A DNA stretch of 64,000 bases from a virus (Duplodnaviria; Caudoviricetes). Of the stretch, positions 2,529-61,400 are shown one piece after another. Every line of letters starts with the position of its first letter. Position 1 is the stretch's first letter. Location: positions 1 to 64,000 of the IMG/VR virus record IMGVR_UViG_3300037313_000574; one strand, 5' to 3'. A program made the position numbers and the translations under genes. The notes beneath the pieces are model-generated. The model made no database searches, was not told the DNA's origin, and saw only the letters and a program-made list of their open reading frames with translations.

Positions 2529-2529
2529 A

Positions 2530-3747
2530 TCAGGCTGCCTCTGCCATCCGATGCGCGGCCATCGCCTGTTCAATCCGCTTGATGAGCGCAACGCCGATTC
2601 CAGGGAACTGGTGCTCGTGGTAGAGAACGGCGCCGCGTTGCTTGTCTGCCGGCTCGAACCCGAGTTCGCGCAGGAAGTCGGCCGACAGGGCAAAACCCAG
2701 GCGCTCGGCGATTACGCCCAAGCGCAGGGTTGGCGGCGAAACGGGTGCAGCCGTCCCCATGGAAGGAAATGGCCAGGTTTCATCCGGCACGTACCCGTTA
2801 TCGCTGGGCTGCTCGGCCAGGGCTTCCAATGCCCGCGGCGCCACGTCTTGCGCGATGCTGGCGGCATGGGCTGCTGCCTCTTCCTCTTCGCGGCGGCGCT
2901 GGGCTGCTTCCAGTACGGCTTGCTGGCGGGCGATATCGCGCTGCCGCTGCTCCAGCTCTGCGCGCTGGGCTGCAACTTCGGCGTTGTGCTTGTCGCGGGC
3001 GGCCTGCAGTTCAGCCTGAGCGGCTTCGCGTTCTGCCTTGGCTTTCGCCTCATCGGCGGCGCGGCGGGCTTCGGCTTCGGCGCGCAGGCGGGCCAGTTCT
3101 TCGCGCTCAGCCTTGATGCGGGCGGCTTCGGCTTCCTGCACCTCGGCAGCCGCGGCTGCTGATTCGAGCTTGTTGAATGCCTCCGATCGTACTGCCATTG
3201 CCTCGTCGCGAAATTCTGCAAATGATTCATCAATGATGGTATCGGCGACAAGTTGCGCTGCGTGACGAATTGATGCAGCCGGCATGCCAATAGCTTTCAA
3301 TGGCTGGCTTCTTATCCAGTCAATCTTGGCTTGGATCGCCGCGACACGCTCCTGCTCGGCCTTGATCTTGGCCTGGCGCTCGGCTTCCTTACGCGCTTCT
3401 TCGGCCTTGATGTCGGAATCAAACCGGCTTTCCAGCGGGGAGATTTCCGCTTCCAGTTCCTTGTATCGGCTGTCCAGCAGCTTGCCGATTTCCAGAATTG
3501 GGGCTTTTCGTTCCTTGCGCGCCTTTTCGGCATCGACGCGCACTTGGCGGAACTTGGCCCGGTGCTCGGTGGCGATCTTCATGCCGGCCGTGGTCGTGAT
3601 ATCGTAGGTAATACCTTCGGCTTCGGCCTTCAGCAAGGCCAGTTCAGCACGGAATGGGTTGAATACCTCAGCAACGTACTGCTCGGGCGTCAGGGTGAGC
3701 AGGGTTGATACGGACTTCTTTTCGGTGGTGGTGAGTTGGGCGGACAT
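2530..3747 (-). CDS. coiled-coil phage recombination-region protein
   Basis: Start MSAQLTT coupled to the upstream stop (TAATG); long E/A/R-rich helices; C-term LRLGVIAERLGFALSADFL domain. Confidence 0.75.
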   Translation of the reverse strand: MSAQLTTTEKKSVSTLLTLTPEQYVAEVFNPFRAELALLKAEAEGITYDITTTAGMKIATEHRAKFRQVRVDAEKARKERKAPILEIGKLLDSRYKELEAEISPLESRFDSDIKAEEARKEAERQAKIKAEQERVAAIQAKIDWIRSQPLKAIGMPAASIRHAAQLVADTIIDESFAEFRDEAMAVRSEAFNKLESAAAAAEVQEAEAARIKAEREELARLRAEAEARRAADEAKAKAEREAAQAELQAARDKHNAEVAAQRAELEQRQRDIARQQAVLEAAQRRREEEEAAAHAASIAQDVAPRALEALAEQPSDNGYVPDETWPFPSMGTAAPVSPPTLRLGVIAERLGFALSADFLRELGFEPADKQRGAVLYHEHQFPGIGVALIKRIEQAMAAHRMAEAA

Positions 3748-27656: not shown

Positions 27657-30032
27657 ATGAGCGAAACATCGATGACCAACGCACCAGACGACGATAGCCA
27701 GCTGAGTGCAATGGCACATGCCATGCTCACCGCCAAGGCTGAAGCCGCCCGCAAGGACGCCGAGCGCGAATACGCGCAGGCTTCTGCCGAGGTCATGCGC
27801 GCCGACGAGGAAGGTGCCGAGCCCGCATTTGCCACCCTGGCCGGGCTGGGCTCGATCTTCCTGAGTGAATTCGCGCAGGCCGAGTCTGATCGCCGCTCGA
27901 CTGAACTGCGCTGGCTGAAGGATTTGCGCCAGTATCGCGGCCAGTACGACGAAGAAGTCGAAGCGCTGATGGACAAGAATCGGTCTAAGGCATTCGTGCG
28001 TAAGACCCGCGTGAAGGTAAAAACGGTCGACTCGCGCGTGTTCGACCTGCTGTTCCCGGCCAATTCCGACCGCAACTGGGCACTGGAAGCAACGCCGGTG
28101 CCGACCGTGGCGCCGGAAATCAAGGACAAGCTCAAGCGCGACCTGACTGCCGCCTTGCAGCGCGCGCCGGAAGAAAACGAGATCCAGCAGGCCGTCAAGC
28201 ATCTGGTCGACACTGCCGCCAAGGGTATGGCCAAGGCGATCGATGACCAGTTGACGGAATCCCGCTACAAGAAGGCCGCGCGCCAGGTGATGCACTCCGG
28301 TCACCTGTACGGCACCGGCATCCTGAAAGCGCCGCTGATCGAGCGGAAGATTCGTACCCGCTTTGTCAATGAAGATGGCAAGTGGGTGATGAAAACGGAA
28401 TCCTACGTGGTGCCGTTTGTCGATTTCGTGCCGATCTGGCGCTTTTTCCCGGATATGTCGGCGACCGAGCTGGAGAATTGCCGCTACGTGTACGAGCGCC
28501 ATGTGATGAGCAAGTCGGCCGTGCTGGCACTGGCTGAGCGCAAGAGCTTCGACACGCAGAAGTTGCGTGATTACGTGACCTCGCACCCGAACGGTGCCAG
28601 AACGCGCAAGCCCTACGACGATGAAATCCGCCAGGTGGGCGACCGCACCACCGCGCACAATGACGACGGCCAGTACGAGATCCTGGAGCGCTGGGGCTGG
28701 GTCGATGCGGCGCAGTTGCACCAGTGCGGCGTGACCGTGCCGGAAAACCGCATGCACGAGACGTTTTTCGCCAACGTGTGGCTGCTGCCATCGGGCGAAA
28801 TCGTCAAGGCCGCGCTGCAGCCGATCAATGGCGTGACCTGGCCGTATCACCTGTATTACTTCGACAAGGACGAAACCAGCATTTTCGGTGAAGGCTTGGC
28901 AACGATCATGCGCGACGACCAGACCATGCTCAACGCCGGCACTCGCATGATCCTCGATAACGCTGCCATCACCGCTGGGCCGCAGTTCGAGGTCAACATG
29001 GACCTGATGTCGCCCACCGAGAAGGCGGATGCGATGTTCCCGTTCAAAATTTGGGGGCGCAACGGCCGGAATCCGGAATCGCCCGCTGTCCGCGTGCTCA
29101 ACATCCCCGGCAATCTGGAAGATCTGCTTCCGATCATTTCCATGTTCGAGGCGAACGCCGACGAAGTGACGGCCGTGCCGCGCTTCATGTCGGGCGAGAA
29201 CGCCACCCAAGGCGCTGCCGGTACCGCATCGGGCTTGTCCATGCTTATGGGCAACACGTCGATCGTCATGAAAGACCTGATCGCCGGCTACGACGAGGGC
29301 ATTACAGCGCCTTTCATCAACGCGCTGTATCGCTGGAACATGCAGTTCAATCCAGACAACGCGGTCAAGGGCGATTTCAACGTCAAGGCCAGCGGCACCG
29401 CGTCGCTGGTGGCGAAGGAAATCCGCGCCCAGCAGCTGGATAACTTTGCCGCGCAGACCAGCAACCCGATGGATGCGCCATTCATCAAGCGCGAAAAGCT
29501 CTTGCGCCAGCGCGCCGAAGCGCACGACCTGGTGGATGTGGTGAAGACCGAAGAGGAAGTATTGGCCGAGCAAAGCAACGACTTGGCCAAGAAGCAGCAG
29601 GAGCTGGCGCAGCAGCAGCAGGAGCTGACCTTGAAGCTGCAAATGGCCACGCTCGACAAGCTGACGGCCGAGGTGCAGAAGGTGCTGGCCGAGGCGCGAC
29701 TGAAAACGGCCGATGCCGTGGCCAAGAACGTGGGCTCGGTCTACGCGGCGACACAGGCGGGCGGCGTGGCGGCAACCAATCCCGCCATTGCACCGGCGAC
29801 CGACGAGATTCTGCGTTCCGCGGGCTTCGAGTCTTCCGGTGCGCCGGTCGGTATGCCCCAGGCACCGCAGGGCACGCTGCCTGAACAAGCTGGCGCGGCG
29901 AACGACTTGCCGATGCCGCAGGAGGCCGATCCGCAAGCGCCGGGAGCAGGTCATCCTGCGCCCGTCCCGCCGATGCAAGGACCGGGGCAAGGACTGCGCG
30001 CCGGTATTGAGACAACGAGGATTGAGCAATGA
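27657..30032 (+). CDS. portal protein
   Basis: 791 aa after terL; RWLKDLRQYRGQY, FGEGLATIMRDDQ, TASGLSML; coiled-coil/Pro-rich C-terminal tail. Confidence 0.9.
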   Translation: MSETSMTNAPDDDSQLSAMAHAMLTAKAEAARKDAEREYAQASAEVMRADEEGAEPAFATLAGLGSIFLSEFAQAESDRRSTELRWLKDLRQYRGQYDEEVEALMDKNRSKAFVRKTRVKVKTVDSRVFDLLFPANSDRNWALEATPVPTVAPEIKDKLKRDLTAALQRAPEENEIQQAVKHLVDTAAKGMAKAIDDQLTESRYKKAARQVMHSGHLYGTGILKAPLIERKIRTRFVNEDGKWVMKTESYVVPFVDFVPIWRFFPDMSATELENCRYVYERHVMSKSAVLALAERKSFDTQKLRDYVTSHPNGARTRKPYDDEIRQVGDRTTAHNDDGQYEILERWGWVDAAQLHQCGVTVPENRMHETFFANVWLLPSGEIVKAALQPINGVTWPYHLYYFDKDETSIFGEGLATIMRDDQTMLNAGTRMILDNAAITAGPQFEVNMDLMSPTEKADAMFPFKIWGRNGRNPESPAVRVLNIPGNLEDLLPIISMFEANADEVTAVPRFMSGENATQGAAGTASGLSMLMGNTSIVMKDLIAGYDEGITAPFINALYRWNMQFNPDNAVKGDFNVKASGTASLVAKEIRAQQLDNFAAQTSNPMDAPFIKREKLLRQRAEAHDLVDVVKTEEEVLAEQSNDLAKKQQELAQQQQELTLKLQMATLDKLTAEVQKVLAEARLKTADAVAKNVGSVYAATQAGGVAATNPAIAPATDEILRSAGFESSGAPVGMPQAPQGTLPEQAGAANDLPMPQEADPQAPGAGHPAPVPPMQGPGQGLRAGIETTRIEQ

Positions 30033-30274
30033 AGCCGCCCGAAGTCATCCGCGCCGAGTTGATCGAAACGCTGGCGACTGCACGCGCCTACAAGAGCAGC
30101 GATGCCTATGCCGCGATCGTGAAGCTGCTGGACGCGATCGATGAAGTTCACCGCGAGAGCTTGCTGACGGCCAGCATCGACGGCGTAGCACGGATTCAGG
30201 GCGCAGCTGCCCAGGTGCGCCAGCTGCGCAATGCGCTGGTCAGCGACAGCATTCACGCATCGCCCGTTTTATAG
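30029..30274 (+). CDS. small portal-adjacent structural protein (Bbp19-like)
   Basis: 81 aa coupled to portal; RIQGAAAQVRQL. Confidence 0.7.
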   Translation: MKPPEVIRAELIETLATARAYKSSDAYAAIVKLLDAIDEVHRESLLTASIDGVARIQGAAAQVRQLRNALVSDSIHASPVL

Positions 30275-30289
30275 ATCGGATAGGACAGC

Positions 30290-30922
30290 ATGAACACAGT
30301 TATCTTGAAAAACGGCCGCAAGGCATATCAAGTAACGCGCATAAGGATATTTGATTCCCCGGTGCAGAGCGTGTTCGGGTCGCCTGTGGCGGCGTGCGCA
30401 TACACCGACTTGGGCGAGATTCCAATCCCAGCAGGAGCGTTACAGCCGCAATTGGGCGATTACTACCAGCCGTCAGAGCGCGCCGGCGAAATGGGAATGT
30501 TCATGACTGCAGGCGAGGTGGCTTTGGACTATGCGGAGCGGGCATTGTCCATGTCAGAGCGGTTTGCAGCCGCTGCCGCTGATTATGCTGCATTCATGGA
30601 TGAGCAAGCCAAGATCCATGCGGCGGGCTGCGCGTCGCACACCATGGACTTCGGCGATGCGCTCAAGGCTTTGAAAAATGGCAAGCGCATCGCGCGCGCC
30701 GGCTGGAACGGCAAAGGCATGTGGCTATGTCTCGGCCAAGGCCATGCTGGGCTGGAAGCCGAGAAGTTTTGGAACCCGCACACCCGCGCCTTCGCTGAAC
30801 AGAACGGCGGCACCGCGCCGGTCCTGCCCTACATCATCATGAAAACCGCTGCCGGCGAAATTCTCATGGGCTGGCTCGCAAGCCAAACCGACATGCTGGC
30901 CGAAGACTGGCAAATCCTGTAA
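30290..30922 (+). CDS. uncharacterised N-domain fused to DUF2829/Tad2-like sponge domain
   Basis: C-term MDFGDALKALKNGKRIARAGWNGKGMW...PYIIMKT...WLASQTDMLAEDWQI is the DUF2829 (Tad2-like) signature. Confidence 0.85.
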   Translation: MNTVILKNGRKAYQVTRIRIFDSPVQSVFGSPVAACAYTDLGEIPIPAGALQPQLGDYYQPSERAGEMGMFMTAGEVALDYAERALSMSERFAAAAADYAAFMDEQAKIHAAGCASHTMDFGDALKALKNGKRIARAGWNGKGMWLCLGQGHAGLEAEKFWNPHTRAFAEQNGGTAPVLPYIIMKTAAGEILMGWLASQTDMLAEDWQIL

Positions 30923-30954
30923 CGCCGCCCTACTTTTGAAACCTGGAGAAAAAC

Positions 30955-31422
30955 ATGACACATGAATACATCGGTACCAAGATTGTCACGGCTTGGCCGC
31001 AGGAGAGCGCCGCCAAGGCTCGTGTTTGCGGAGTGGACTGCCATCCTGGCGCCGGATCCTGCAACGGCTATTGCACCGGTAAAGCCGATCGGCCGCCAGC
31101 CCTGCCAGCCCAACCAGGCTATGCCGTGAAATATGCGGACGGCTACACCAGCTGGAGCCCGAAAGACGTTTTCGAGGCTGCATACATCGACATCGGCCAT
31201 GTATCGCACCTGCCACCGCACCAGCAGCGCCTGATTGGCGAAAGGGCTGAACTGGGCGACAAGCTGGGCAAGCTGCGCGCCTTCATGGCTGGCGAAGCAT
31301 TCCTCGCCTTGCCGGAACCGGAGCGCTTTCGTATGGCCGAGCAGGCCGTCGTCATGGATCAGTATCACAAGATCCTTGCCGCCCGCATCGCTGCCTTTGT
31401 CGGCGACCAGCCCACCACGTAA
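30955..31422 (+). CDS. two-domain candidate anti-defence protein (YIGTK..SWSPKDVFE domain + crAss001_48-like helical domain)
   Basis: YIGTKIVTAWP...GYAVKYADGYTSWSPKDVFEAAY, then LPPHQQRLIGERAELGDKLGKLRAF...MDQYHKILAARIAAF. Confidence 0.8.
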   Translation: MTHEYIGTKIVTAWPQESAAKARVCGVDCHPGAGSCNGYCTGKADRPPALPAQPGYAVKYADGYTSWSPKDVFEAAYIDIGHVSHLPPHQQRLIGERAELGDKLGKLRAFMAGEAFLALPEPERFRMAEQAVVMDQYHKILAARIAAFVGDQPTT

Positions 31423-31456
31423 CGATTCTTTGACCCCTGCGCAAGCAGGACAGCCA

Positions 31457-31484
31457 AAGCCACTCCGCAAGGGTGGCTTTTTTT
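31457..31484 (+). terminator. intrinsic terminator
   Basis: AAGCCACT-CCGCAAG-GGTGGCTT followed by a T-run. Confidence 0.8.
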
Positions 31485-31509
31485 ATAAGCCAACCACCTG
31501 GAGGAACAC

Positions 31510-32430
31510 ATGGCGAGCACTACCGAAGACGGCAACAAAAAAGCAGCCGAGGATTTTGAATCCGGCTTCAACGAAGAAATCACCAAGCCGGAGCAGACCG
31601 AGGACGAGGCTTTTGGCCTGACCCCGGACGAAGCGCCGGGCACTGAATCGACGGAAGGCAGCGCGCCGGCCGTGGCGATCGTCGTCACAGGCGACAAGGA
31701 TGCGCCGCACGGCGAAATGCCGACCGGCGGCGACGAAACCGCTGCTGCAACGAACGAAGAAGCGCCTGCCGCCACCGAAGCCGAACCTGCCCTGGATATC
31801 GAGAAGGAAAAGCAACGCCTGAAGTCGTGGGAAGGCCGCTTGCGCGCCAAGGAAGCTGAGTTGGCCGCGCGCCAGGCTGAAGAAGCCACCGAAACGCCGG
31901 CCGCAGAAGCCGCTGAACAGGCTGCCGGCGAAGTGCCTGACGAAGACGACGCCGATATCAAGGCGCTGTCGGAAGACTTCGGCCCGGAATTCGTCACCCT
32001 GCTCACTTCCCTGATCGCCAAGATCGCGCGCAAGACCGCCGCGGAAACCGCCAGCGAGCATACCGCGCCGTTCCGCAAGGATATCGACGATGTGATTGCT
32101 GAAATGACCAACGAAAAGCAGCGCTTGCACTTCGAGAAGATTTCGGACGCCTTCCCCGACTTCATGGAAATCGCCGAATCGGATGCCTTCAAGGCATGGG
32201 GCGATGCCATGGCGCCGGAAGACAAGGCGGAATTCGATCGCATCGTCGCCTCCGGCAGCGCCCGCGAAATCATCGGGCTGCTCAAGCGATACAAGGCTGC
32301 CAGCACCACCGATTCGGGCATTGACGAGGACGCGCTGGACAACGCTGAAGGCGTGCGCTCGACCGGCTTGAAGCTGCCCGAGTCCCCATCCAGCAAGGAT
32401 GACTTCGCCTCGGCGTGGAACGAACACTGA
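31510..32430 (+). CDS. capsid scaffolding protein
   Basis: Acidic, low-complexity protein between portal and MCP; RLKSWEGR; GGAGG RBS. Confidence 0.75.
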   Translation: MASTTEDGNKKAAEDFESGFNEEITKPEQTEDEAFGLTPDEAPGTESTEGSAPAVAIVVTGDKDAPHGEMPTGGDETAAATNEEAPAATEAEPALDIEKEKQRLKSWEGRLRAKEAELAARQAEEATETPAAEAAEQAAGEVPDEDDADIKALSEDFGPEFVTLLTSLIAKIARKTAAETASEHTAPFRKDIDDVIAEMTNEKQRLHFEKISDAFPDFMEIAESDAFKAWGDAMAPEDKAEFDRIVASGSAREIIGLLKRYKAASTTDSGIDEDALDNAEGVRSTGLKLPESPSSKDDFASAWNEH

Positions 32431-50519: not shown

Positions 50520-52352
50520 ATGAACGGTTCCGCATTGTCTGGATTTGTCGGTGGTCTGCAGCAGGGCTACGATTGGGTGCGAGATCAAAAACGTAAGGGC
50601 GAAGATGATGACTTCGCAAAAAAAGAGCGTGGTCGCGTCGAGAAAAAATGGGACCGCGAGGATGCCCACCAGGCTGAGATTGATGAGCTGAACAAAACTT
50701 TTTTCCCCAGTGAAGCGAAGACGGCGCCGGCACCGGCGATCGGCGTGAAGCCGCCGGACGCAGGGGGCGCTGCCATGACCGAGCTCGTACCGGAGCAAGC
50801 AGCGCCGGAAGTCAGATCGCTGAATGCGCCGCCGCAGGCGAAGGCGACACAGGCAAGCGCGACAGTGGCGGGCCCGCAATCTCCGGCACCTGCCATACCC
50901 GCGCAAGGTCAAGCCGTTGCGGTGCCGGTTGTTGCCACCCAGGAAAGCCGCCCTGTTGCCCTGACTGGCGGCATGCGCCCGCCAGCAGCGCAGGATCAAC
51001 CCGGCCAGGCCCAGCCGCAAGGCATGCCGATCCAGCCGAACCAGATGACCAGCATGAATAATTCGCTGGAATACATGATCCAGCGCGCGGCGATCAATCT
51101 CAAACATGGTGTCGATGACGGCAAGACGCTGATGTCGCTGTACAAATTCCGGGATACGAGCCAAAAGGAAGGACTGGACGACGCAATCCGCCTGTTGAAC
51201 ATGGGCGACAATGAAGGCGCCATGCGCAAGTACAACAGCACCGGACAGTCCACCGGCTGGACTGTGAAATCATCGGTCGACGGCGTATTCAAGTATGGTG
51301 GCGCCGACATTCCAACGAAGCTGGTCACGGTGCAGGATGCCAATGGCACGGTACGCACGATCAATACCGCGCAGGCGATGGTGCAGAATCAGACGATCGA
51401 CAAGCTAATTACCCAGGCGCAGAAAGGCGTGGAGCAAGACGATAAGCGCGCCGACAATGAAGCCAATCGCCGCATCCAGCAGCAGAATGCCGATACGCAG
51501 GAGAACTATCGGCGTGACGTGGCTGCGGCCAAGACTGCCGCAAGCCAGCCGCAAGCCGCCCCAGTATGGGATGACAAGGCCGACACCTTCCTCAAGCAAC
51601 GCTATACCGTCACCGATCCCGTATCGGGCGCCGTGACGGTGGATGGCGATGGCCTGCAGTTCGGCAAGGCCGTTGCCTTGTCGCGCGCCCGCACCAATGG
51701 CGGCGATGCCACCAGCGGATTGGGCTATGCCTTCGACGTTGATAACCGATTGAAGCAGAGCGCCGGCGACGACCCGGCTAAATTGCGCCAACTGCGCAAT
51801 GACTATCTGCGCAGCATTGCGCCACCACGCACGGCACCAGCCGCAGCGGCAAGTCAAAGCCCGGAATTTTCCAGGGTGCAGGCGGCGTATGACGCTGGCC
51901 AAGCCGGCCGCAATGCAGACCAAAGAGCCATTCTTGAGCGGGAATTAGCTGCTGAAACGAATCCAGATAACCGGGCCGCGCTTGAGCGTGAGATTGCCAG
52001 GCTCCCGGCAGCAGCGCCCGTCACGGCACGGGAAAAACTTGCGCCGGCAGGCGGCATACCAAAATCGCCCGCCGCACCCGCCGCAACAAATGGCCGATCA
52101 ACAGCCGAACGCGATCAGCGCATCGCTGAAATGAACAGGTTGAGCGGGAATTCCATGGAGGCGCGCAGGAGCGCCATCGCGATGCGTGAAACCGACGCCA
52201 AAGAGAACTTTGACAGCCAATTGGCCCAACTCAGGCCCAACATGCCGCGCGCCGAAAAATTCAAACTCATGGAGTGGTTCGATGCCCATGAGGATTCATT
52301 GAGCAACGAGCAGCGCAAGAGATTGCGCGAAGCCAAGGCAAAAGTCGGCTAA
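50520..52352 (+). CDS. internal virion / ejection protein
   Basis: 610 aa; FVGGLQQGY N-term; Pro/Ala/Gln linkers. Confidence 0.65.
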   Translation: MNGSALSGFVGGLQQGYDWVRDQKRKGEDDDFAKKERGRVEKKWDREDAHQAEIDELNKTFFPSEAKTAPAPAIGVKPPDAGGAAMTELVPEQAAPEVRSLNAPPQAKATQASATVAGPQSPAPAIPAQGQAVAVPVVATQESRPVALTGGMRPPAAQDQPGQAQPQGMPIQPNQMTSMNNSLEYMIQRAAINLKHGVDDGKTLMSLYKFRDTSQKEGLDDAIRLLNMGDNEGAMRKYNSTGQSTGWTVKSSVDGVFKYGGADIPTKLVTVQDANGTVRTINTAQAMVQNQTIDKLITQAQKGVEQDDKRADNEANRRIQQQNADTQENYRRDVAAAKTAASQPQAAPVWDDKADTFLKQRYTVTDPVSGAVTVDGDGLQFGKAVALSRARTNGGDATSGLGYAFDVDNRLKQSAGDDPAKLRQLRNDYLRSIAPPRTAPAAAASQSPEFSRVQAAYDAGQAGRNADQRAILERELAAETNPDNRAALEREIARLPAAAPVTAREKLAPAGGIPKSPAAPAATNGRSTAERDQRIAEMNRLSGNSMEARRSAIAMRETDAKENFDSQLAQLRPNMPRAEKFKLMEWFDAHEDSLSNEQRKRLREAKAKVG

Positions 52353-52420
52353 TCACCCTGCCAGACCATTGCTGCGCCAAGACTGAACGCCACCATCAAA
52401 ACACCAAGGATTCCACCGCC

Positions 52421-55400
52421 ATGGCAACAAAGAAGCCCCAGCCGCAATACCTGCAAAACGAAGAAGCGCAGCCGAATTGGGATGCGGGCGAAGATTTCCT
52501 AAAAAATCTTGAAGCCAATGGCAATCAGGACAAGCCGCAGGAAGGCGCGGGCATCTTGCGCACTGCGGGCGACATGGCCATCAAGGGCGCGCAGGGCGTG
52601 GTCGGGCTGGGCCAGTCAGCAGTGGGCCTGGGAAGCCTGGCGACGGGGGGGCTGGTTGGCGAAGGCATGCGCGCTATTGGCTATGATCCCAAGCGCACGA
52701 ACGACATGCTGGGCGAATATCTCAGCGATGCGCAAAAGGCTTCCGATGCTGCAGTACAAAAGGAAGATACGTTCCTCGGCGCGGTCGGCGCTGCCGTAGC
52801 CAATCCGCGCGCCATAGTCGGCAGCGTCGTGCAATCCCTGCCGGCCATGATCGCCGGCATGGGCGCGGCCGGCGCGGCAGCACGCGCGATTGGTGCCAGG
52901 GCGGCGGCGGCTTATGGTGGCATGGGCACGGAAGCCGGCGCAGTGGCGGCCAAGGCAGCGATCGAGCAAGCCAGCGGCAAACTGCTGGCGACCAGTGCAG
53001 GTATCGAGGGCGCGCAGACAGCCGGGCAGATTGCCGATGATGCGCAGGCAGCCGGACGCGCCTATAGCGATTATGCGCCGGCGGCGCTGGCGGCCGGCGC
53101 CGGCACGGCTGCAATCGGCTTCGGGGCGGGCAAGCTGGTGGGCGACGCCGCAACGGATATCGCCACCGGCGCGCATACGCTCAAGGGCAGCAAACTTGCC
53201 AAAATCGGCAAGGAGTTTCTGAGCGAGGGCGCGCTGGAGGAAATGCCGCAGTCGGCGCAGGAACAATACTTTACCAATATCGCCAATGGCGAAGCGGACC
53301 CGATGAAGGGCGTGGCCAATGCTGCCGGCATGGGCTTGGTCACTGGCGGCGTCATGGGCGCTGGCATGGGCGCGCTGCATGGGCACCCGCAACCGGAATC
53401 GCAGCCGGTGCCGCTGGCCGATACTGGCCCCCTCTCCCGCGCCGCCAATGCCGTCGCTGCCGCACAGGCAGCCGCGCAAGCCGCGCGCACTGGCCCCATC
53501 GATTACCAGCGCTATGACCCGCCCATGCTGCAGCCGCAGCAGCAATCACAGGAACTGGCATTACAAACGCCGGCCGAGAATGGCATTGATTTCGAGCCGC
53601 AGCCGGACGCCCGCGGCGCGCTGGCCCGCCAGCCGATCCCGGAACTACGCGAAGCCACGATTACCACGGAAGCGCCGGCCGGCTATGACAATGGCGTCGA
53701 TTTCCTGTCGTCCAACAGCGAAGAACCGGCACTGCCGCGCGACGCCGCCAGCGTCGAGGCGCAGACCTTCAAGAGCAAGGGCTTGGCGAAAATCGCCATG
53801 AACCAGAGCAAAACGACCGAATCGCATGAAGTCGTGCCGGCCGATGACGGCAATGGTTTCGTCGTGCGGCCGAAATTCGCCGCCGCGCCGGACCAGGGCA
53901 TTGCTGGCGCCGGTACCAAGATCCTGCGCGATGGCTTGGCCGCCATTTCGACGCTGTACCAGGAAGGTGCGGCCGACAAACAGCACGCCGACGAGGCGCA
54001 AGCCATCCTGGCAGGGCTGGATGACAATTCGATCAGCGTCAACGAGGCGCAAGCGCGTTTCGATGCCATTTACGACGAGATCAATACGCCGGCGGCAGTG
54101 CCGGGCGAAGACGACTTGCTCACGGCAACACCAGACGAAACGCCGGCACTAACCGAGGCGACGCCAGACGCGCCCAGCGTTGACGAAATAGATCTCGAAG
54201 AGACGCGCATCGGCCTGGAGGTTGACCAGGCGGATCTGGAGGCGCTGGGCGAAGCACTTGCCAACGACATGGACCCGGCCACCGGCAAGAAAATCGCTTC
54301 GCAAGGCATCCGCGACCAGTACCAAAGCGAGTATGAAAACCTGCAAGCCTCCGTTGCCGCCGCAACCGAGTACCTGCGCCAGAAGAATGCGTTGATTGCA
54401 CCGCCACCGGCCCCGCGTGCGGATGCCGCGCCTGCCACGATCGACCCGATTGCCGAGGCTGCCAACGAAGCCGCCACCTCCCCGCTGAATGATCTCCCCG
54501 AGCCGACGCAGGCACAGAAGGAGGCCGGCAACTACAAGAAGGCCCATGTGCGCGTGCATGGCCTGGATATCACCATTGAAAACCCGGTCGGCTCCTTCCG
54601 CCGCGGTGTCGACAAGGACGGCACGCCGTGGGAAACCGAGATGCAGCACCACTATGGCTACATCAAGGGCACGGTGGGGATGGACAAGGACCATATCGAT
54701 GTTTTCATTGGCCCGAACCATGAAAGCAACAAGGTTTTTATCGTCGACCAGATCGACCCGAGCACCGGCAAGCCGGATGAACACAAGGTCATGCTCGGTT
54801 TTGACAGCATGGAGCAGGCGCGCGCCGCCTACCAGGCAAATTACGCCGATGACTGGACCGGCGGCAAGGCCATCACTGAAACCACCGTGCAGGGCTTCAA
54901 GGATTGGCTGGAGAACGGCAATACCAAGAAGCCGTTTGCCCAGCAGGCCAAGAAATACCCGCCAGCAGCACAAGTAGAACCTCAGGAGATTACCACCAAT
55001 GCTACCCAACCTGAACAAGTGGCTGAAAAAGCGCAAGAAGCGGCAGGAACGCAAGCTGCGCAGGAAGATGCGCCGGTAGCAGCCGTACCGGCAGCCGAAC
55101 CAGTCCTGTCCAAGCAAGACTTGAACAAGTTGACAGTCAAGGACATGACGGATGCCCAGTTGCTGCAGGCCCGCGACGTGTTCGACGGCGGCCCGCGCGC
55201 GCCGAAGATCGAGAAGGAAATCAAGAAGCGCGGGCTGGATGCCGCCCCTGAGGCCGCGCCAGCAGCACCGGCACAAGAAGGGAACGCGAATAATCCTGGC
55301 ACTGGCAATGCCAAAGCCGCGCCGGGGGAAAAGCCAACCATCGAAACGGCGATGCAAGAAGGTAGCGAATTGCGCGCCGTGATGGAAAAGGATACCTATG

Positions 55401-58400
55401 CCTTGCCGCTGATTATTCGGCACCCGCTTGAGGCTGACGCGCAAGGCGTCATCATTGGCGCAAAAACCAGTACCGATCGCGTCGTAGAAGAAGGCGGCGA
55501 TGAATACAAGGAGCTATATGACGGCTTCAACAATACCCGCGATTATTTGCGCAATACATTTGGCGACACGGTAACGCTGTACCGCGCCGACGCCACCCAG
55601 GATGAGAAGCGGGTAGAGAACAAGCCGACCCTGTATTTCGGAACCAAGAAGGTTGCATCCAACTTTGAGAGCAAGGGCCGTAAGGTCAAGGCTTACGATA
55701 TAAAAGTGGATGACATCATTGCGGCGCCGCTGTTCCACAATGGCTATTTTGATTTTGTGGTGCGCAATCCTGAGTATGTCGAAAAAGGCCAGGATAAAGG
55801 CCCGCAGCGCGCCACCACAATGGACGAAGCCAAGGCCGCCGTGCGCGCCTACTTCGATTGGTACTTGCGCGAAAGCCCCAACGCCAAGGAGCCGATGCCT
55901 GGCATCCATGGCGGGAATGCCTTCACGATGGACGCCGGCGGCGCACCCTTCACCAAGGCTGGGGAAATCCTGGTCAATGGTCCGACTGGCGATTTGAAGT
56001 TCAAGTATGCCGATTTGTGGAAGGAGGCCAAGGAGGCCGCCAAGCCGGCGCCCCGTGGCGTACTGGTCAAGCCGGCCGAGAGCAAAGGTGAGACTTTGCA
56101 GGAACCGGCACCGGCGAAGAAGAAGCCGACCGCCAAGCAAAAGCAAGCCGCCGCAGAAGAAGCCATGCGCAAGATGCTGGGCGCTGAAGTTGGTGACACG
56201 ATCACCATGACTTTCAAAGGCAGTTTCGGCTACCTGACCAGCGGCAAGCCTATGGTCATTGAAAGCATTAATAGCGACAAGAGCATTTATTTCCGTGATC
56301 CAGTCAACGGTTCTGGCACGTTTGAATCGCTGTCGTCGATGCAGGCCGCAGCCAGGAATTCATTCGTCAAATTGACTTGGGAAGTTCAGCCAAAGGCCGA
56401 GTCGAAGCTGGCACCGGCTGAATCAGCGCCGGCACCAACAGCCGCGCCCGTCGACACCCGTCCCACCCTGGCCGACGAAGCCGCCAAGGCTAAGGCGCAA
56501 GCCGACCTGATGGACGGCCTTGCCGATCTGGCCAATATCTTCGGCAAGAATGCCAAGCTCAACATCACCCCCGAGCAAGAGCAAAAGCTCTTGCCGGTCT
56601 TGACCAAAGTGATGGATGCCGCCTTCCGACTGGGCTATTATCAATTTAAGGATGCCGCGCGCTTCGTGCTGACCACGATCCGCGAGAAAATCGGCGCCGA
56701 CGTGGCCGAGCAAATCACCCTGGACCATGTACAGGGTGCCTATATCGGCATGGCCGGCAAGTACAAGGACCAAGGCGCGTCGACCAAGAAGGAGGTCATT
56801 GGCGTGGAAAGCCTGGTCGAATTGGCCGATGTTGCTGAAAATCAAGATGACAATTCCGCCGAACCGTATAAACTGGAAGAAACAACCCCGCAAGAGGAAG
56901 CCGATAATGATTCCACCGCTTCAACCGATTCGCCTCCGGTCGATTTCGACTTGGTTGCGGAACAACGCCCCGAAGGCAGCGCTGCACCCGTCCGAGGAGC
57001 TAAACCGCCGCGCGCTCGATCTGGACGAGCAAATGATCGAAGCGTTCGAGGACCGCGAGGACGCGCTGAAAAATCAAATGATGGCCAACTCGACTTGGGG
57101 GACGGAGCAGGGAATAACCCAGTTTCCGCTGGACAGAATGACGCTGTGGCAGGAAGTGTGCAGCGAGTTTCTGCCGACTTCCGCCCTGCAATCGGAGGAC
57201 TGACGCGCGAAGGTTCCTGGTTCGATACGGCTGGACGCAATATCGACCTGATTGAATTGGCGATCACCATTGAAAAAGAAGGTCGCGCCGCCACCCCGGA
57301 AGAACAAGCCAAGCTGTCGAAATACGTAGGTTTTGGCGCCTCCGCCATCCGTAACCCGCTATTTCCTATCCCGCCGTCTTACGCCAAGCAGCAAGACCCG
57401 AACCGCCTGATCTGGCCGCAGTATGTCGAACCGCGCTGGAAGCCATTGGCCGAACGGCTGGATGCCTTGCCGCGCGAGTGGCAGAAATCCATCCTGCAAT
57501 CGTCCCAGTACGCCCATTACACCAGTGAAGGCATGATCCGCTCGATTTGGTCGGCCATGCAGCGCCTTGGCTTCACCGGCGGCAAGATCATGGAACCGGG
57601 CATGGGGATTGGCTCGTTCTCGATGCTGATGCCGGACGCTGTGCGACTGGGCTCGACCTATACCGGGATTGAGTTCGATGGCCCGACCGCCTTGATTGCT
57701 AAGTTGCTCTCCCCGGACCAGAACATGATCCATGGCGACTTCATCAAGCGCAAATTGCCGCGCGATTTCTTTGATGCTGCCATCGGCAACCCGCCGTTCT
57801 CGCAAACCAAAGTCTTGGCGGACCCGGATTACGAAAAGCATGGCTTCATGCTGCATGATTTCTTCTTTGCTAAATCCATCGATCGCGTGCGCCCTGGCGG
57901 CCTGCTGGCCTTTGTGACCAGCAAGGGAACGATGGACAAGCAAGCCGACAAGGCCCGCAAGTACCTGGCCGAGCGCGCCGACCTGATCGGCGCCATCCGC
58001 CTGCCATCGACCGCCTTTGAAGATAATGCCGGTACCAGCGTGGTTACGGATGTGATTTTCTTGCGCAAGCGCGCACCGGGCGCCGCGCCGGCGGGCGCAG
58101 CCTGGCAGAACGTGGCGGCCGTGGAAACCAAGGATGGCCCGGCCGTCATCAATGAGTATTTCGCCGCGCACCCCGAGATGGTGCTGGGCCAAAACCGGAT
58201 TTCCGGCAACGTCGATGACGAGGGCCGCCGCATCAATAGCAACGGCATGGGCGGCGAGAAATATACCGTTGTGTCGTATGACAAGACGCCGGCCGAGCTG
58301 GAAGCCAAATTCGCCGCGGCGATCGAGCGCTTGCCGGAAAACGTCTATTCCGTCATGAATATGAGCCCTGAGGCCATCAAGGCGGAAACCGCCAAGGTGG

Positions 58401-61400
58401 ACTTTGACCCGCGTATCAAGCGCGATGGCGTGGTCTATGTGGGCGACGATGGCACGCTGATGCGCGTCGAGCATGGCGTCGGCAAGCCGCTGGGCGACTC
58501 CGTGAAATTCACGGAAAAAGACCACCAGTGGATGAAAAGCTATGTCGGCTTGCGCGACCTGGTGCAAGCCGCACGCGCGACGCAGGCGCAGGACGGCGAT
58601 TGGGAAAAGCCGCTCAAGGCACTCAACAAGGCTTACGACAAGTTCCGCAAGGAGCATGGTCCGATCAATGCCTTCCGCACGCAGGTCCGCAAATCCACCG
58701 ATGAAGATGGCAACCCGGTGGAAACTGAAATTCGCATCTTCACCAACCGGCGCCGCTTCCGCGAGGATTACGACGCTGCCATCGTGACCCAACTGGAAAC
58801 CATCAACGAAGCCGGCGAAGTCGTCAAGGCGCCGTTCCTGTTGGGCCGCACCATCGGCAAGCCCGTTACTCGCACCATCCAAAGCATTGGCGACGCCCTG
58901 GCTGTGTCGCTGGACGCACTGGGCAAGCTCAATCTTGCCGATGTGGCCAAGCGCATCAACCTGTCGGAAGAAGAAGCGATCGCCGCACTGGGCGACCAGG
59001 TATATAAAACTCCATCCGGGCAATGGCAATTGTCGGATGAATACCTGTCCGGCGATGTGGTCACGAAGCTGGAAGAAGCCGAGGAAGCCGCGCGCCTGGA
59101 CCCGAGCTTGAAGCGCAACGTCGAAGCCCTGAAGAAGGCCCAGCCGGAAAAGCTGGGGCCGTCGCAGATTTCCGTCAAGCTGGGCGCTTCCTGGATTCCG
59201 GCCGAGCATGTCAACGCCTTTGCCAAGGAAATCGAAGCAGGCGCCGTGACGTTCGACTCGAAAACGGAGACTTGGCAAGTAGCTGGCGGCAATGAGCGTT
59301 CCGGCCGCCGCGCTGGCGCCGAATACGGCACTGCCGCCCGCTCTCCTTCGGAATTGCTGGAGGCGGCCTTGAATAGCCGCAGTGTCAAGGTCACGACTAA
59401 AGACGCCGACAAGAAAACGGTCGTGGATACCGAAGCCACCACCGCCGCCAATGAAGCCTTAAAGAAGATCAAGGATAAGTTCAAGGGCTGGGTATGGACC
59501 GATTCGAGCCGCGCCGCCGAACTGGTGGAAAGCTACAACAAGCGTTACAACAATATCGCACCGCGCCTGTTTGATGGCTCGCACCTGACACTGCCTGGCG
59601 TGTCGCTGCGCTTCAAGCTCCACCCGCACCAGTTGCGCGCGATCTGGCGCGTCATCCAGACAGGCAACACTTATCTGGCGCATGCTGTCGGCGCCGGCAA
59701 GACGATTGAAATGATCGCCGCCGGCATGGAGCAAAAGCGCTTGGGACTGATCAAAAAGCCCATGTACGTGGTGCCGAACCACATGCTGGAGCAATTTTCC
59801 AACGAGTTCATGGAGCTCTACCCGCTGGCCAATATCATGGTGGCGGACGATGAAAACTTTTCGCCGGAGCGCCGCCGCGCCTTTATCGCCTCGGCTACGC
59901 TGAACAACCCGGACGCCATCATCATCACGCACGATGCCTTCCAGCGTATCGGCGTCAAGGAAGAATCGATCGCGCCGATCCGCGACGAGATCCTGTCCGA
60001 CCTGGAGATTGAGCTGGAAAGCATGGCCAAGGACTCGGGTGCCCGCGTGCGCCGGGGCCAGTTGGAGCAGCAAATCGAGGCCGTGACACAGCGTTTCGAC
60101 CGCATCATCGCGGCCGGCGGCAAGGATTCCACCATCAAGTTTGAGGATATCGGGGCCGACTTCATCTTTGCCGATGAGGCGCATGTATACCGCAAGCTGG
60201 ACTTCCATACCGCCCAGCAGATCAAGGGCATCGACCCGAACGGCTCCAAGCGGGCGCTCGATATGTACGTCAAGACCCGCTACCTGGAAAAGCAGCGGCC
60301 GGGCCGCTCGATGGGCTTTGCCTCGGGTACGCCCGTCACCAATACCATGGGCGAGTTGTACACCATCATGCGTTTCTTTGCCGCTGACGAGCTCGACCGC
60401 GCCGGTATTTCCAGCTTTGATGCCTGGGCGCGCATGTTTGGCGAAGTCGTGCCGGCACTGGAGCCAAACGCCGCCGGCAAGTACGAGATTGTCGAGCGCT
60501 TCGCCCGCTTCGATAACGTGCCGGAATTGATGAGCCGCGTGCGGCAATTCATGGATGTGCTGACCTCGGAACACTTGGGCGCACTGGTCAAGCGCCCGGA
60601 TCTGAAGGGCGGTAAGCCGAGCCTGAATATCGTGGCGCCGACTGCCGCGCTGGACGCCTACATGAAGGGCGAACTGGCACGCCGCATCGAGGCTTCCAAA
60701 AAGTGGAAGCCGAGTAAGGATGAACCGAGCAACCCGGACCCGATTGTGGCCATCATCACCGATGGGCGCTTTGCCGCGATCGATCCGCGCTTCTTTGGCG
60801 GTGACTTGGAAGAAGGCGACACGTCTATCATCCATGAAATGGCCGACAAGGTAGCGGCGGAATACCACGCCACGGCCGATAACGTCTATCTCGACAAGCA
60901 GCAGAAGCCGGAACCGATCAAGGGCGGCACTCAGATCGTATTCTATAACCTCGGCTTTGGCGCTGCCTCGCAAGCCAACCGGGGATTCAATGCCCGCGCC
61001 GCCTTCACCAAGCGATTAACCGATGGCGGCGTCAAGCGCAGCGAAATCGCCTGGTTTGACGATGCCAACACCGACGCCAAGAAGGAAGCAATCTTCAAGG
61101 CCATGCGCGCCGGCCAGATCCGCGTCTTGATTGGTTCGGCCAAGAAGATGGGCACCGGCGTCAACGTGCAAAAGCGCCTGACCAAGCTGCATTACCAAGA
61201 TCCGCCCTGGTTCCCGGCCGATGTGGAGCAGCCGCACGGCCGCATCATCCGACAGGGCAACCAAAATGGCGAAGTGGGAATCGACTGGTACACCACCAAG
61301 GGCACCTATCAATCAACCATGTGGCAGATGGTGGCGCGCAAGCAGCGCTTTATCGACCAGGCTTTCACCGGCGATAAGAACATGCGCTCGATGGATGACA

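What the first reader, a model, noticed from the sequence alone, without database searches (positions are those of the whole stretch)
30290..30922. Tad2/DUF2829 immune-signal sponge fused to an unknown N-terminal domain
Seen: the C-terminal ~92 aa carry the full FGxALxALKxGKRxARxGWNGKGM...WLASQTDMLAEDW signature; the N-terminal ~115 aa (KAYQVTRIRI...PQLGDYYQ) match nothing I recognise. Established: Tad2 (DUF2829) sequesters Thoeris gcADPR signals, and sponge domains often fuse to other anti-defence domains. Inference: the N-domain is a candidate new anti-defence module.
Basis: partly seen in the sequence, partly recalled or inferred. Interest (0 to 1): 0.8.

Follow-up and report, generated by a model that had tools for sequence, protein, structure and literature searches.

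The report
Tad2 sponge with decayed sponge-like head
A phage gene encodes an intact Tad2 "sponge" that should soak up a bacterial alarm molecule; its unrecognised front half is most likely a worn-down copy of the second sponge gene next door, so this is a variant of a published design rather than a new anti-defence module.

Summary
ORF 30290-30922 (+, 210 aa) ends in a full Tad2/DUF2829 domain: PF11195, 90.7 bits, residues 119-210. Nine of 11 gcADPR-contact residues of HgmTad2 are identical and two are conservative; the cyclic-dinucleotide pocket residues are not kept.

Residues 1-118 match no Pfam, PHROG or NCBIfam family, nothing real among 1.84 billion protein representatives, and nothing in IMG/VR.

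They do resemble one protein: the next gene, ORF2 (30955-31422). BLASTP gives E 5e-5. The Smith-Waterman score is 71 against about 29±5 for shuffles (0 of 15,000 reached it), and ORF2 is the top hit among 555 six-frame ORFs of the window.

ORF2 is a clear Sequestin (PF21825), a published 3'cADPR sponge, behind a common "SWSPK" N-domain. SWSPK-Sequestin-Tad2 fusions occur in IMG/VR (8 of 80 loci sampled). ORF1's aligned stretch has lost all four Sequestin ligand residues.

ORF1 and ORF2 form a two-gene cassette inserted at a cargo hot spot in the head operon of a Bcep22-like phage of Oxalobacteraceae. The closest relatives lack it.

Verdict: a new variant of a known kind, of moderate interest. 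The scan also noted this same stretch in an overlapping window, but not on other DNA.

The parts
30029..30274 (+). Backbone gene 'orf81' (81 aa, no family), the last gene before the cassette
   Evidence: ORF. Homologues in 26 related phage loci, where it is followed directly by the scaffold gene.
30275..31421 (+). Two-gene accessory cassette (ORF1 + ORF2) inserted into the head operon
   Evidence: By blastn, window 30149-30247 aligns to L005 4563-4661 and window 31418-31681 to L005 4690-4950. About 1.17 kb here therefore replaces 29 nt in the relative. The orf81-to-scaffold gap is 44-180 nt in most relatives and 1236 nt here.
30282..30285 (+). Shine-Dalgarno-like AGGA, 4 nt before the ORF1 ATG
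   Evidence: Read directly from the sequence.
30290..30922 (+). ORF1, 210 aa: orphan N-part plus Tad2 domain
   Evidence: The protein is a singleton cluster in a 5.8-billion-protein collection.
30290..30424 (+). ORF1 residues 1-45: beta-rich segment, possibly a remnant of the SWSPK-type N-domain
   Evidence: The single-sequence AF2 model gives strands 4-8, 11-15, 17-26, 32-39 and 42-47 at pLDDT 47-73. hhalign places residues 10-40 on the GYAVKY..SWSPK..AAY part of the ORF2 family, without significance.
30383..30637 (+). ORF1 residues 32-116: stretch similar to ORF2 residues 71-147 (end of the SWSPK domain plus the Sequestin domain); degenerate, with 0 of 4 ligand residues kept
   Evidence: BLASTP 27.7 bits, E 5e-5. 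Smith-Waterman 71 against shuffles of mean 28-30, sd 5, max 60; 0 of 5000 reached it in each of three schemes. Best of 555 six-frame ORFs, with the next at 52. ORF2-family HMM E 0.003 with Z=1. hhalign P 0.015-0.05. Collinear in-frame DNA matches.
30644..30919 (+). ORF1 residues 119-210: Tad2 (PF11195) domain, predicted gcADPR sponge
   Evidence: It agrees with the subfamily consensus at every column that is at least 85% conserved, except I134 where the consensus is V.
30945..30948 (+). GGAG Shine-Dalgarno, 6 nt before the ORF2 ATG
   Evidence: Read directly from the sequence.
30955..31422 (+). ORF2, 155 aa: SWSPK-type N-domain (residues 1-84, with a Cys-rich insert at about 17-50) plus a Sequestin/crAss001_48 domain (residues 87-146)
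   Evidence: PF21825 at 62.4 bits against a cut-off of 24.8. 667 homologues. R92, E96, Q130 and R144 correspond to the Sequestin residues R8, E12, Q47 and R61; three are invariant and R92 nearly so in the family alignment. AF2 model pLDDT 90.8. BFVD matches include a crAss001 protein at TMt 0.95.
31456..31490 (+). Intrinsic terminator of the backbone (10-bp stem plus T run), downstream of the cassette
   Evidence: The same hairpin follows orf81 in relative L005, so it belongs to the backbone and not to the cassette.
31510..32430 (+). Scaffold-like gene of the backbone, first gene after the cassette
   Evidence: Homologous in 63 related loci.

Best explanation
ORF1 is a Tad2-family immune-signal sponge. 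Its C-terminal 92 residues should assemble, like solved Tad2 proteins, into a tetramer that sequesters the Thoeris signal 1''-3' gcADPR (3'cADPR). That would keep the ThsA effector switched off.

Its N-terminal 118 residues are most likely the decayed remains of an 'SWSPK N-domain + Sequestin' module. That module is intact in the adjacent gene ORF2, and other phages carry it fused in front of Tad2. In ORF1 it has kept some core positions but lost every Sequestin ligand-contact residue. It probably no longer binds 3'cADPR and now serves at most as a spacer, an oligomerisation piece or a head piece.

ORF1 and ORF2 arrived together as a two-gene sponge cassette. It sits at a cargo hot spot at the end of the portal transcription unit of a Bcep22-like podophage of Oxalobacteraceae, upstream of the backbone terminator, so it should be expressed with the late head genes.

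Shown here: the domain identities, the residue conservation, the cassette insertion, the pairwise similarity and the existence of triple fusions. Inferred: ligand binding, oligomeric state, timing of expression and the loss of function of the N-part.
For: Tad2 domain:
- PF11195 at 90.7 bits over the full profile.
- Sequence matches to the solved SptTad2, HgmTad2 and SPO1 Tad2.
- In that alignment the HgmTad2 gcADPR contacts W21, N22, G23, M76, W87, L88, S90, T92 and D93 are identical (ORF1 W139, N140, G141, M184, W195, L196, S198, T200, D201). A78 becomes T186 and V84 becomes L192. The residue list is from 10.1101/2023.11.15.567273.
- All columns conserved at 85% or more in the subfamily are kept, except I134 for V.

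N-part similar to ORF2:
- BLASTP E 5e-5.
- Smith-Waterman 71 against 28-30±5, with 0 of 5000 shuffles reaching it in each of three schemes.
- Best of 555 window ORFs, with the next at 52.
- The HMM and hhalign give the same alignment register.
- Collinear in-frame DNA matches.

ORF2 is a Sequestin. Its function is taken from 10.1101/2025.07.12.664507.

Precedent for the architecture: SWSPK+Sequestin+Tad2 in one ORF in 8 of 80 IMG/VR loci, and as a split adjacent pair in L194. Sixty Tad2-PF21825 fusions are reported in Pfam.

Cassette and hot spot:
- Insertion junctions and gap lengths.
- The same site holds two DNA methyltransferases in L058.
- The scaffold-to-capsid gap holds a Tad2 gene in L052 and a Sequestin gene in L031.

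Host plausibility: the closest relatives are in Janthinobacterium assemblies. ThsB_TIR genes occur in 23 of 151 genomes of that family.
Against: - Family-level support for 'N-part = Sequestin-derived' is weak. Pfam gives no PF21825 hit even at E<=10. The ORF2-family HMM scores only 2.3-3.8 bits. hhalign gives probability 1-3%.
- Smith-Waterman scores against other ORF2-family members (26-48) and against the triple-fusion N-parts (z -1 to 2) are near background.
- The structural neighbours of the ESM Atlas model of residues 1-118 or 40-118 are not PF21825 clusters.
- No confident structure of the N-part was obtained; the AF2 single-sequence model has pLDDT 43.6.
- There is only one sequence of this N-part, so selection on it cannot be measured.
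- Nothing was tested at the bench: ligand binding, oligomeric state and expression are all inferred.
Confidence: 0.58

Rival explanations
1. The N-part is a functional domain of its own. It could be a new or neofunctionalised anti-defence module, for example a Sequestin-derived pocket retuned to another signal. It could be a head domain that gates the Tad2 core, as the 48-residue head of pdAcrIIA7 does. Or it could be a piece that pairs with ORF2.
For: - The frame stays open for 118 codons, about 2% by chance at this base composition (my estimate).
- GC is highest at codon position 3 in this frame.
- The ESM Atlas holds a model of the whole protein at mean pLDDT 0.81.
- Fusion partners of Tad2 are often sponges.
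- pdAcrIIA7 shows that an N-terminal helical head on a Tad2 fold can switch activity (PMC13133391). phmmer extends the ORF1 alignment into that head, ORF1 73-118.
Against: - There are no homologues anywhere, so there is no sign of a conserved function.
- All four Sequestin ligand residues are replaced (P53, D57, Y99, G113), and proline and glycine lie in what should be helix 1.
- GC3 is 0.65 here against 0.70-0.83 in the neighbouring genes, which suggests weaker constraint or a different history.
- The alignment to the AcrIIA7 head has low posterior support.
Confidence: 0.25
2. The N-part is not part of the working protein. Translation starts at Met119, which aligns with Met1 of stand-alone HgmTad2, and gives a 92-aa Tad2. 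The upstream 354 nt would be an untranslated or dispensable leader left by a rearrangement.
For: - Met119 followed by DFGDAL aligns with the first residues (MTFGQAL) of HgmTad2.
- 19 of 80 related Tad2 genes have little or no N-terminal extension.
- The N-part is an orphan with lower GC3.
Against: - There is no Shine-Dalgarno sequence before the ATG at 30644 (GCGTCGCACACC precedes it), whereas AGGA precedes the ATG at 30290.
- No promoter-like site was found on the + strand inside the ORF.
- Genes here are tightly packed, and a 370-nt non-coding stretch that happens to stay open in frame with the Tad2 domain is unlikely.
Confidence: 0.1
3. The likeness between the ORF1 N-part and ORF2 is chance or compositional (two Ala-rich helical stretches), and the N-part is an unrelated orphan sequence of unknown origin.
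For: Profile methods give only P 0.003-0.05. There is no similarity to other family members or to the triple fusions. The Atlas structural neighbours are unspecific.
Against: - Shuffles that keep global or local composition never reach the observed score: 0 of 15,000 in all, z about 8.
- ORF2 is the top hit among 74,000 residues of six-frame ORFs from the same DNA, by a margin of 19 units.
- Three methods give the same register.
- Family-invariant or nearly invariant core positions of ORF2 (Y77, G81, Q91, F110, M134; G95 is conserved in the family consensus) are matched in ORF1.
Confidence: 0.07

Closest known systems
Tad2 (Thoeris anti-defence 2; PF11195/DUF2829): SPO1 Tad2, HgmTad2, SptTad2
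   Same: The full domain is present and the gcADPR-contact residues are kept (9 of 11 identical, 2 conservative). Sequence similarity to solved members is strong.
   Different: - It carries a 118-residue N-terminal extension.
- The loop between beta2 and beta5 is about 33 residues with its own conserved motif (FWNPHxRAFAExNGG). That lies between SPO1 (24 residues) and HgmTad2 (41 residues).
- The HgmTad2 cyclic-dinucleotide contacts are replaced: R31, P32, F70 and N85 become G149, Q150, V178 and M193. cGG or cGAMP binding in the HgmTad2 manner is therefore not predicted.
Sequestin-Tad2 and SWSPK-Sequestin-Tad2 fusion proteins (bioRxiv 10.1101/2025.07.12.664507; IMG/VR loci L226, L228, L232, L235, L240, L243, L247, L249)
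   Same: The layout and size are the same: a module of about 120-135 residues in front of a C-terminal Tad2 domain, 210 aa here against 231-240 aa there. The ORF1 N-part aligns with the SWSPK-tail-plus-Sequestin part of ORF2.
   Different: - In ORF1 the Sequestin-like part is not recognised by PF21825.
- It lacks all four ligand residues and has proline and glycine in place of helix 1.
- There is no direct similarity to the sampled triple fusions.
Sequestin (PF21825, crAss001_48-related): the neighbour ORF2
   Same: ORF2 is a regular member. It passes the HMM cut-off, has the R/E/Q/R ligand residues and shows the helical-hairpin fold. ORF1 and ORF2 together would target the same Thoeris signal.
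   Different: ORF2 is a separate gene, and it carries a Cys-rich insert in its SWSPK N-domain. In the 160 sponge loci sampled (80 Tad2, 80 ORF2-type) only L194 has separate Tad2 and Sequestin genes side by side, in the reverse order.
pdAcrIIA7 (PDB 9kzr): a Tad2-fold protein with a 48-residue two-helix N-terminal 'head domain'
   Same: It has a helical N-terminal extension on a Tad2 core. In pdAcrIIA7 the head is flexible and blocks the tracrRNA-binding anti-CRISPR activity (PMC13133391). phmmer aligns ORF1 73-118 with that head.
   Different: The alignment in the head is of low confidence. ORF1 has a further 70 residues upstream. No anti-CRISPR role is implied here, and that role is itself disputed for HgmTad2.
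SWSPK-Tad2 proteins (phrog_872; e.g. Escherichia phages Louie, Huey and IME10, annotated 'anti-CRISPR protein')
   Same: This is the commonest architecture in the subfamily: a beta-rich N-domain of about 45-75 residues in front of Tad2.
   Different: HMMs of that N-domain score about 0 bits on the ORF1 N-part. ORF1 is 40-50 residues longer.

Membership tests
Tad2 / PF11195 (ORF1 residues 119-210) | Matches the family HMM above the curated cut-off, over the whole domain | tested here: met
   90.7 bits against a cut-off of 25, profile 1-73/73; 92.5 bits in the genome search.
Tad2 / PF11195 (ORF1 residues 119-210) | gcADPR-contact residues (HgmTad2 W21, N22, G23, M76, A78, V84, W87, L88, S90, T92, D93) | tested here: met
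   Nine are identical, and A78 to T and V84 to L are conservative, by the phmmer alignment to 8kbi. The residue list is from the paper.
Tad2 / PF11195 (ORF1 residues 119-210) | Homotetramer with pockets at protomer interfaces | not tested
   No oligomer job was run.
Tad2 / PF11195 (ORF1 residues 119-210) | Binds 1''-3' gcADPR and relieves type I Thoeris | not testable with these tools
   Needs binding and plaque assays.
Cyclic-dinucleotide-binding Tad2 subclass (HgmTad2/SptTad2 type) | Long beta2-beta5 insertion (35-41 residues) carrying R31, P32, L36, S47, F70, N85 | tested here: not met
   The insertion is about 33 residues. R31, P32, F70 and N85 align to G149, Q150, V178 and M193.
Sequestin / PF21825 (ORF1 residues ~46-116) | Matches the family HMM | tested here: not met
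   No Pfam hit for residues 1-118 at E<=10. My own ORF2-family HMM gives 3.8 bits, E 0.003 with Z=1. hhalign gives P 0.015-0.05.
Sequestin / PF21825 (ORF1 residues ~46-116) | Ligand residues R8, E12, Q47, R61 (SequestinA numbering); E12A, Q47A or R61A each abolish activity | tested here: not met
   The aligned positions in ORF1 are P53, D57, Y99 and G113 (alignment; residue list).
Sequestin / PF21825 (ORF1 residues ~46-116) | Significant similarity to a bona fide member | tested here: met
   Similarity to ORF2 only: BLASTP E 5e-5; Smith-Waterman z about 8, with 0 of 15,000 shuffles reaching it; top of 555 window ORFs. Scores against other members are near background.
Sequestin / PF21825 (ORF1 residues ~46-116) | Antiparallel helical-hairpin fold | tested here: inconclusive
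   The low-confidence AF2 model shows helices 74-86 and 90-110, but coil where helix 1 should be. The Atlas structural neighbours are unspecific.
Sequestin / PF21825 (ORF2) | HMM above cut-off, ligand residues and fold | tested here: met
   62.4 bits against 24.8. R92, E96, Q130 and R144 are present and conserved. The model has pLDDT 90.8 and matches a crAss001 protein at TMt 0.95, rmsd 0.4.
SWSPK-type N-domain (N-part of phrog_872, phrog_9467, phrog_32732) for ORF1 residues 1-45 | Matches profiles of the domain (YIGTK...GY.V.Y.DGY.SWSPK..FE.AY) | tested here: not met
   The short, long and combined HMMs score -1 to 0.6 bits. No PHROG hit at E<=10. Only a non-significant hhalign placement.

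The most novel reading that the evidence does not exclude
The ORF1 N-part is a Sequestin-derived 'pseudo-sponge' that has taken on a new role. One possibility is a retuned pocket for a different immune nucleotide, such as a type II Thoeris or another ADPR-derived signal. Another is a regulatory or assembly head that gates the Tad2 tetramer, or that pairs with the ORF2 Sequestin domain to build a mixed sponge complex. It would be the first described case of a sponge domain evolving into a non-binding or re-specified accessory domain.
Probability: 0.15. Interest if true: 0.6.

Novelty: new variant of a known kind. Interest (0 to 1): 0.36.

Why it matters
- It gives a natural case of two sponges aimed at the same Thoeris signal, Tad2 and Sequestin, carried side by side.
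- One of them drags along what looks like a decayed second sponge domain. This is a snapshot of how modular sponge fusions are built, duplicated and degraded.
- It shows that the end of the portal unit and the scaffold-to-capsid gap in this phage group are hot spots for anti-defence cargo: sponges in some members, DNA methyltransferases in others. That is useful for finding new anti-defence genes by position.
- Placement among late head genes fits reports that Thoeris TIR proteins sense capsid proteins (PMC12578639, title and abstract only). This link is inference.
- The widespread SWSPK N-domain, which sits in front of both Tad2 and Sequestin domains and has no Pfam family, deserves study in its own right.

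Tried and rejected
- **Common N-domains fused to this Tad2 subfamily.** HMMs of the SWSPK type, the long HKQV..GDYLV..SPK type and both combined score about 0 bits on ORF1 1-118. phmmer of the N-part against 110 such N-termini gives a best E of 1.1. My first eyeball alignment to these domains is therefore withdrawn.
- **Frameshifted remnant of a canonical N-domain.** Six-frame translations of 30200-30700 do not match those HMMs.
- **Homologue searches with the N-part alone.** The word search finds only the protein itself. The exhaustive phmmer search finds two spurious hits in long repetitive proteins. IMG/VR gives none. tblastn against 160 related loci gives none.
- **BLAST extension into the N-part of phage Louie's protein**. 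About 20% identity with a 10-residue gap; judged to be drift from the strong Tad2 match.
- **ESM Atlas.** No feature hits; the structural neighbours are unspecific small barrels and helical pieces.
- **Structure of ORF1.** The single-sequence AF2 model is too poor to search with.
- **ORF2 model against PDB.** Foldseek gives nothing at E<=0.001. The VIA wide search returns only generic helical hairpins, and the N-domain was barely tested.
- **PDB sequence search with ORF2.** Only spurious polyubiquitin repeats sharing 'PP.QQRLI'.
- **NCBIfam.** No hits for ORF1, ORF2 or orf81.
- **ThsB_TIR in the four genomes that hold related phage contigs.** None found. The wider family sample was used instead.
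Full report
**1. Observation**

The window has an ATG-started ORF at 30290..30922 (+), 210 aa. An AGGA lies 4 nt upstream of the ATG, and the ORF begins 15 nt after the stop of an 81-aa gene. Pfam PF11195 (Tad2-like) covers residues 119-210 with the complete profile, at E 8.5e-26 and 90.7 bits against a cut-off of 25. The whole virus record holds one such match.

Solved Tad2 proteins match by sequence:
- SptTad2 8wjd, E 1.8e-18
- HgmTad2 8kbi, E 3.9e-15
- pdAcrIIA7 9kzr, E 3e-14
- SPO1 Tad2, E about 2-3e-12

Residues 1-118 hit nothing in Pfam or PHROGs at E<=10 and nothing in NCBIfam.

**2. The Tad2 domain is intact**

The HgmTad2 paper lists the gcADPR contacts as W21, N22, G23, M76, A78, V84, W87, L88, S90, T92 and D93. 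The double mutant W21A/N22A and the triple mutant S90A/T92A/D93A both reduce binding (10.1101/2023.11.15.567273).

In the phmmer alignment these positions fall in ORF1 as follows:
- Identical: W139, N140, G141, M184, W195, L196, S198, T200, D201.
- Conservative: T186 (for A78) and L192 (for V84).

That is nine identical and two conservative. Against 119 subfamily members, ORF1 agrees with the consensus at every column conserved at 85% or more, except I134 where the consensus is V.

The cyclic-dinucleotide pocket of HgmTad2 is not kept. R31, P32, F70 and N85 align to G149, Q150, V178 and M193. The beta2-beta5 loop is about 33 residues with its own conserved motif. I therefore predict gcADPR binding but not HgmTad2-style cGG or cGAMP binding. 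Both are inferences from alignment.

**3. The N-part has no family, and extensions are normal here**

Three searches with residues 1-118 found no relatives:
- A word-based search of 5.8 billion clusters found only the protein itself.
- An exhaustive phmmer search of 1.84 billion representatives gave two weak hits in long repetitive proteins, which I regard as spurious.
- IMG/VR gave none.

N-terminal extensions, however, are the rule in this Tad2 subfamily. Most of the 120 best homologues carry 45-135 extra residues. In 80 IMG/VR loci the breakdown was as follows:

| N-terminal type | Loci |
|---|---|
| Beta-rich 'SWSPK' domain (YIGTK...GY.V.Y.DGY.SWSPK..FE.AY) | 26 |
| Longer variant of that domain | 5 |
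| KKPV...YPCK type | 2 |
| Almost no extension | 19 |
| Other, including Acb4 (L126; PDB 9e4w, E 5.7e-4) | 28 |

Profiles of the common domains score about 0 bits on ORF1. No frameshifted remnant is visible.

GC by codon position in the N-part is 0.585, 0.483 and 0.653. Periodicity is therefore in frame, but GC3 is lower than in the neighbouring genes (0.70-0.83).

**4. The neighbour explains most of it**

ORF2 (30955..31422, 155 aa) has the SWSPK domain at residues 1-84, with a Cys-rich insert, followed by PF21825 'crAss001_48' at residues 87-146 (62.4 bits).

PF21825 has been shown to be a sponge family, named Sequestin, that binds 3'cADPR and blocks type I Thoeris. It is the commonest Pfam fusion partner of Tad2, with 60 instances. 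Its key residues are R8, E12, Q47 and R61, and the alanine mutants of E12, Q47 and R61 are inactive (10.1101/2025.07.12.664507).

ORF2 meets the tests for membership:
- It has R92, E96, Q130 and R144 at these spacings. All are invariant or nearly so in 58 homologues.
- Its AF2 model is confident, at pLDDT 90.8.
- The model matches viral Sequestin-like proteins, including a crAss001 protein at TMt 0.95 and rmsd 0.4.

ORF1 residues 32-116 align with ORF2 residues 71-147:
- BLASTP gives 27.7 bits, E 5e-5.
- The Smith-Waterman score is 71. Shuffles give mean 28-30, sd about 5 and max 60, and none of 5000 reached 71 in each of three shuffling schemes. By a Gumbel fit I estimate p of about 1e-5.
- Among all 555 six-frame ORFs of the window, ORF2 ranks first and the next scores 52.
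- Two collinear in-frame DNA matches support the alignment.
- The ORF2-family HMM (E 0.003 with one target) and hhalign (P 0.05 and 0.015) give the same register but are not significant on their own.

ORF1 matches family-conserved core positions of ORF2: Y77, G81, Q91, G95, F110 and M134. At the four ligand positions, however, it has P53, D57, Y99 and G113. It also has proline and glycine where helix 1 should be, and the AF2 model shows coil there. By the membership rules the N-part is not a Sequestin. It looks like something derived from one.

**5. Precedent for the architecture**

Scanning IMG/VR with the ORF2-family alignment gave 80 loci. In eight of them a single ORF of 231-240 aa has SWSPK, Sequestin and Tad2 in that order. 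In L194 an SWSPK-Sequestin gene is followed by a separate Tad2 gene. ORF1 (118 + 92 residues) has the same layout. It shows no direct similarity to those particular N-parts (z -1 to 2), and they come from a different Tad2 lineage.

**6. Context**

The window is 64 kb of a 72,290-bp virus record that CheckV rates complete. Around the finding lie the large terminase, an SU10-type portal, orf81, ORF1, ORF2, a scaffold-like gene and the major capsid protein.

There are 140 IMG/VR relatives with capsid identity up to 85%. The closest genome-borne copies are in Janthinobacterium and other Oxalobacteraceae assemblies. A giant ORF from 52292 to beyond the window end (at least 3903 aa) is DarB-like, which fits a Bcep22-like podophage.

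In the closest relatives, orf81 is followed within about 100 nt by the scaffold gene. The DNA junctions are window 30247|31418 against L005 4661|4690. The cassette is therefore exactly ORF1 plus ORF2. The strong terminator at 31456-31480 is shared with L005, so it belongs to the backbone.

The same site and a nearby one carry other cargo in relatives:
- L058 holds a winged-helix-like gene and two DNA methyltransferases at the same site.
- L052 holds a canonical SWSPK-Tad2 gene in the scaffold-to-capsid gap.
- L031 holds a Sequestin gene in that gap.

These are cargo hot spots, and the cargo is repeatedly of the anti-defence kind. ThsB_TIR (PF08937) genes occur in 23 of 151 sampled genomes of the family that holds the Janthinobacterium host, several of them in tandem. 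A Thoeris-type pressure is therefore plausible. PF08937 alone does not prove a complete Thoeris system.

**7. Mechanism proposed**

- Shown: domain identity, conservation of contact residues, the cassette insertion, the pairwise similarity and the existence of triple fusions.
- Inferred: the Tad2 domain tetramerises and sequesters 1''-3' gcADPR. ORF2 sequesters the same signal as a dimer. Both are made with the late head genes, when capsid proteins, which are reported Thoeris triggers (PMC12578639, title and abstract only), accumulate. The ORF1 N-part no longer binds the signal.

I put 0.58 on this package. The rivals are:
- 0.25 on a functional N-part, either new or re-specified.
- 0.10 on translation from Met119.
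- 0.07 on the similarity to ORF2 being chance.

**8. Comparison and novelty**

ORF1 is a regular member of the Tad2 family. The design 'other sponge module plus Tad2' is published. Three things are unusual:
- The front module is decayed beyond family recognition.
- It sits directly beside an intact copy of that module type.
- The pair is lodged in the head operon.

I class it as a new variant of a known kind, with moderate interest (0.36). The pdAcrIIA7 head domain, which blocks that protein's activity (PMC13133391), is a functional analogy worth testing. It is not evidence.

**9. Limits**

- No confident structure of the N-part was obtained.
- Only one sequence of the N-part exists.
- No bench data exist.

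Noticed in passing
window 52292-64000 (+), runs off the window end: A single open frame of at least 3903 aa. PHROGs call it DarB-like antirestriction (phrog_10089, E 0 for the second half), with DNA-methyltransferase and helicase parts and a lysozyme/endolysin-like stretch near residues 710-885. It marks the phage as Bcep22-like. The default ORF list missed it because it is open-ended, and listed spurious minus-strand ORFs inside it instead.
   Followed up: partly
L058:781-4600: In a related phage, the orf81-to-scaffold site that holds the sponge cassette here holds a 152-aa winged-helix-like gene, a 701-aa gene that looks like a C5 cytosine DNA methyltransferase, and a 420-aa gene that looks like an N6/N4 DNA methyltransferase (judged from their sequences; not run through Pfam). 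This marks the site as a hot spot for anti-defence cargo.
   Followed up: partly
L052:4880-5398 and L031:1467-1694: A second hot spot, between the scaffold and major capsid genes, holds a canonical SWSPK-Tad2 gene (172 aa) in L052 and a stand-alone Sequestin gene in L031.
   Followed up: partly
L226, L228, L232, L235, L240, L243, L247, L249 (ORFs near 2400-3200); L194:2438-3211: Eight IMG/VR loci encode one protein of 231-240 aa with SWSPK, Sequestin and Tad2 in that order. L194 has the same parts as two adjacent genes.
   Followed up: yes
window 30955-31206 (ORF2 residues 1-84), and the N-termini of many Tad2 and Sequestin proteins: The 'SWSPK' beta-rich N-domain (about 45-75 aa) sits in front of both Tad2 and Sequestin domains in hundreds of proteins, yet has no Pfam family. 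It appears only as the N-parts of phrog_872, phrog_9467 and phrog_32732. Its role is unknown. In ORF2 and its closest relatives it carries a four-Cys insert (VCGVDC...CNGYC) that looks like a small metal-binding knuckle; model pLDDT there is 72-81.
   Followed up: partly
L001:3983-4453 (Escherichia phage Louie, PQ850616.1): P22-like coliphages Louie, Huey and IME10 carry an SWSPK-Tad2 gene between the spanin and small terminase genes. It is annotated 'anti-CRISPR protein' in Louie and Huey and left unannotated in IME10. The label probably stems from the AcrIIA7/DUF2829 link.
   Followed up: no
genomes G010-G144 (family of the Janthinobacterium host of L164): ThsB_TIR (PF08937) genes occur in 23 of 151 sampled genomes, with tandem copies in G030, G042 and G103. 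None was found in the four genomes that carry related phage contigs.
   Followed up: no
L126:2626-3291: An Acb4-Tad2 fusion. The N-domain matches PDB 9e4w (Acb4) at E 5.7e-4. It is an example of the published dual-sponge design within the same Tad2 subfamily.
   Followed up: partly
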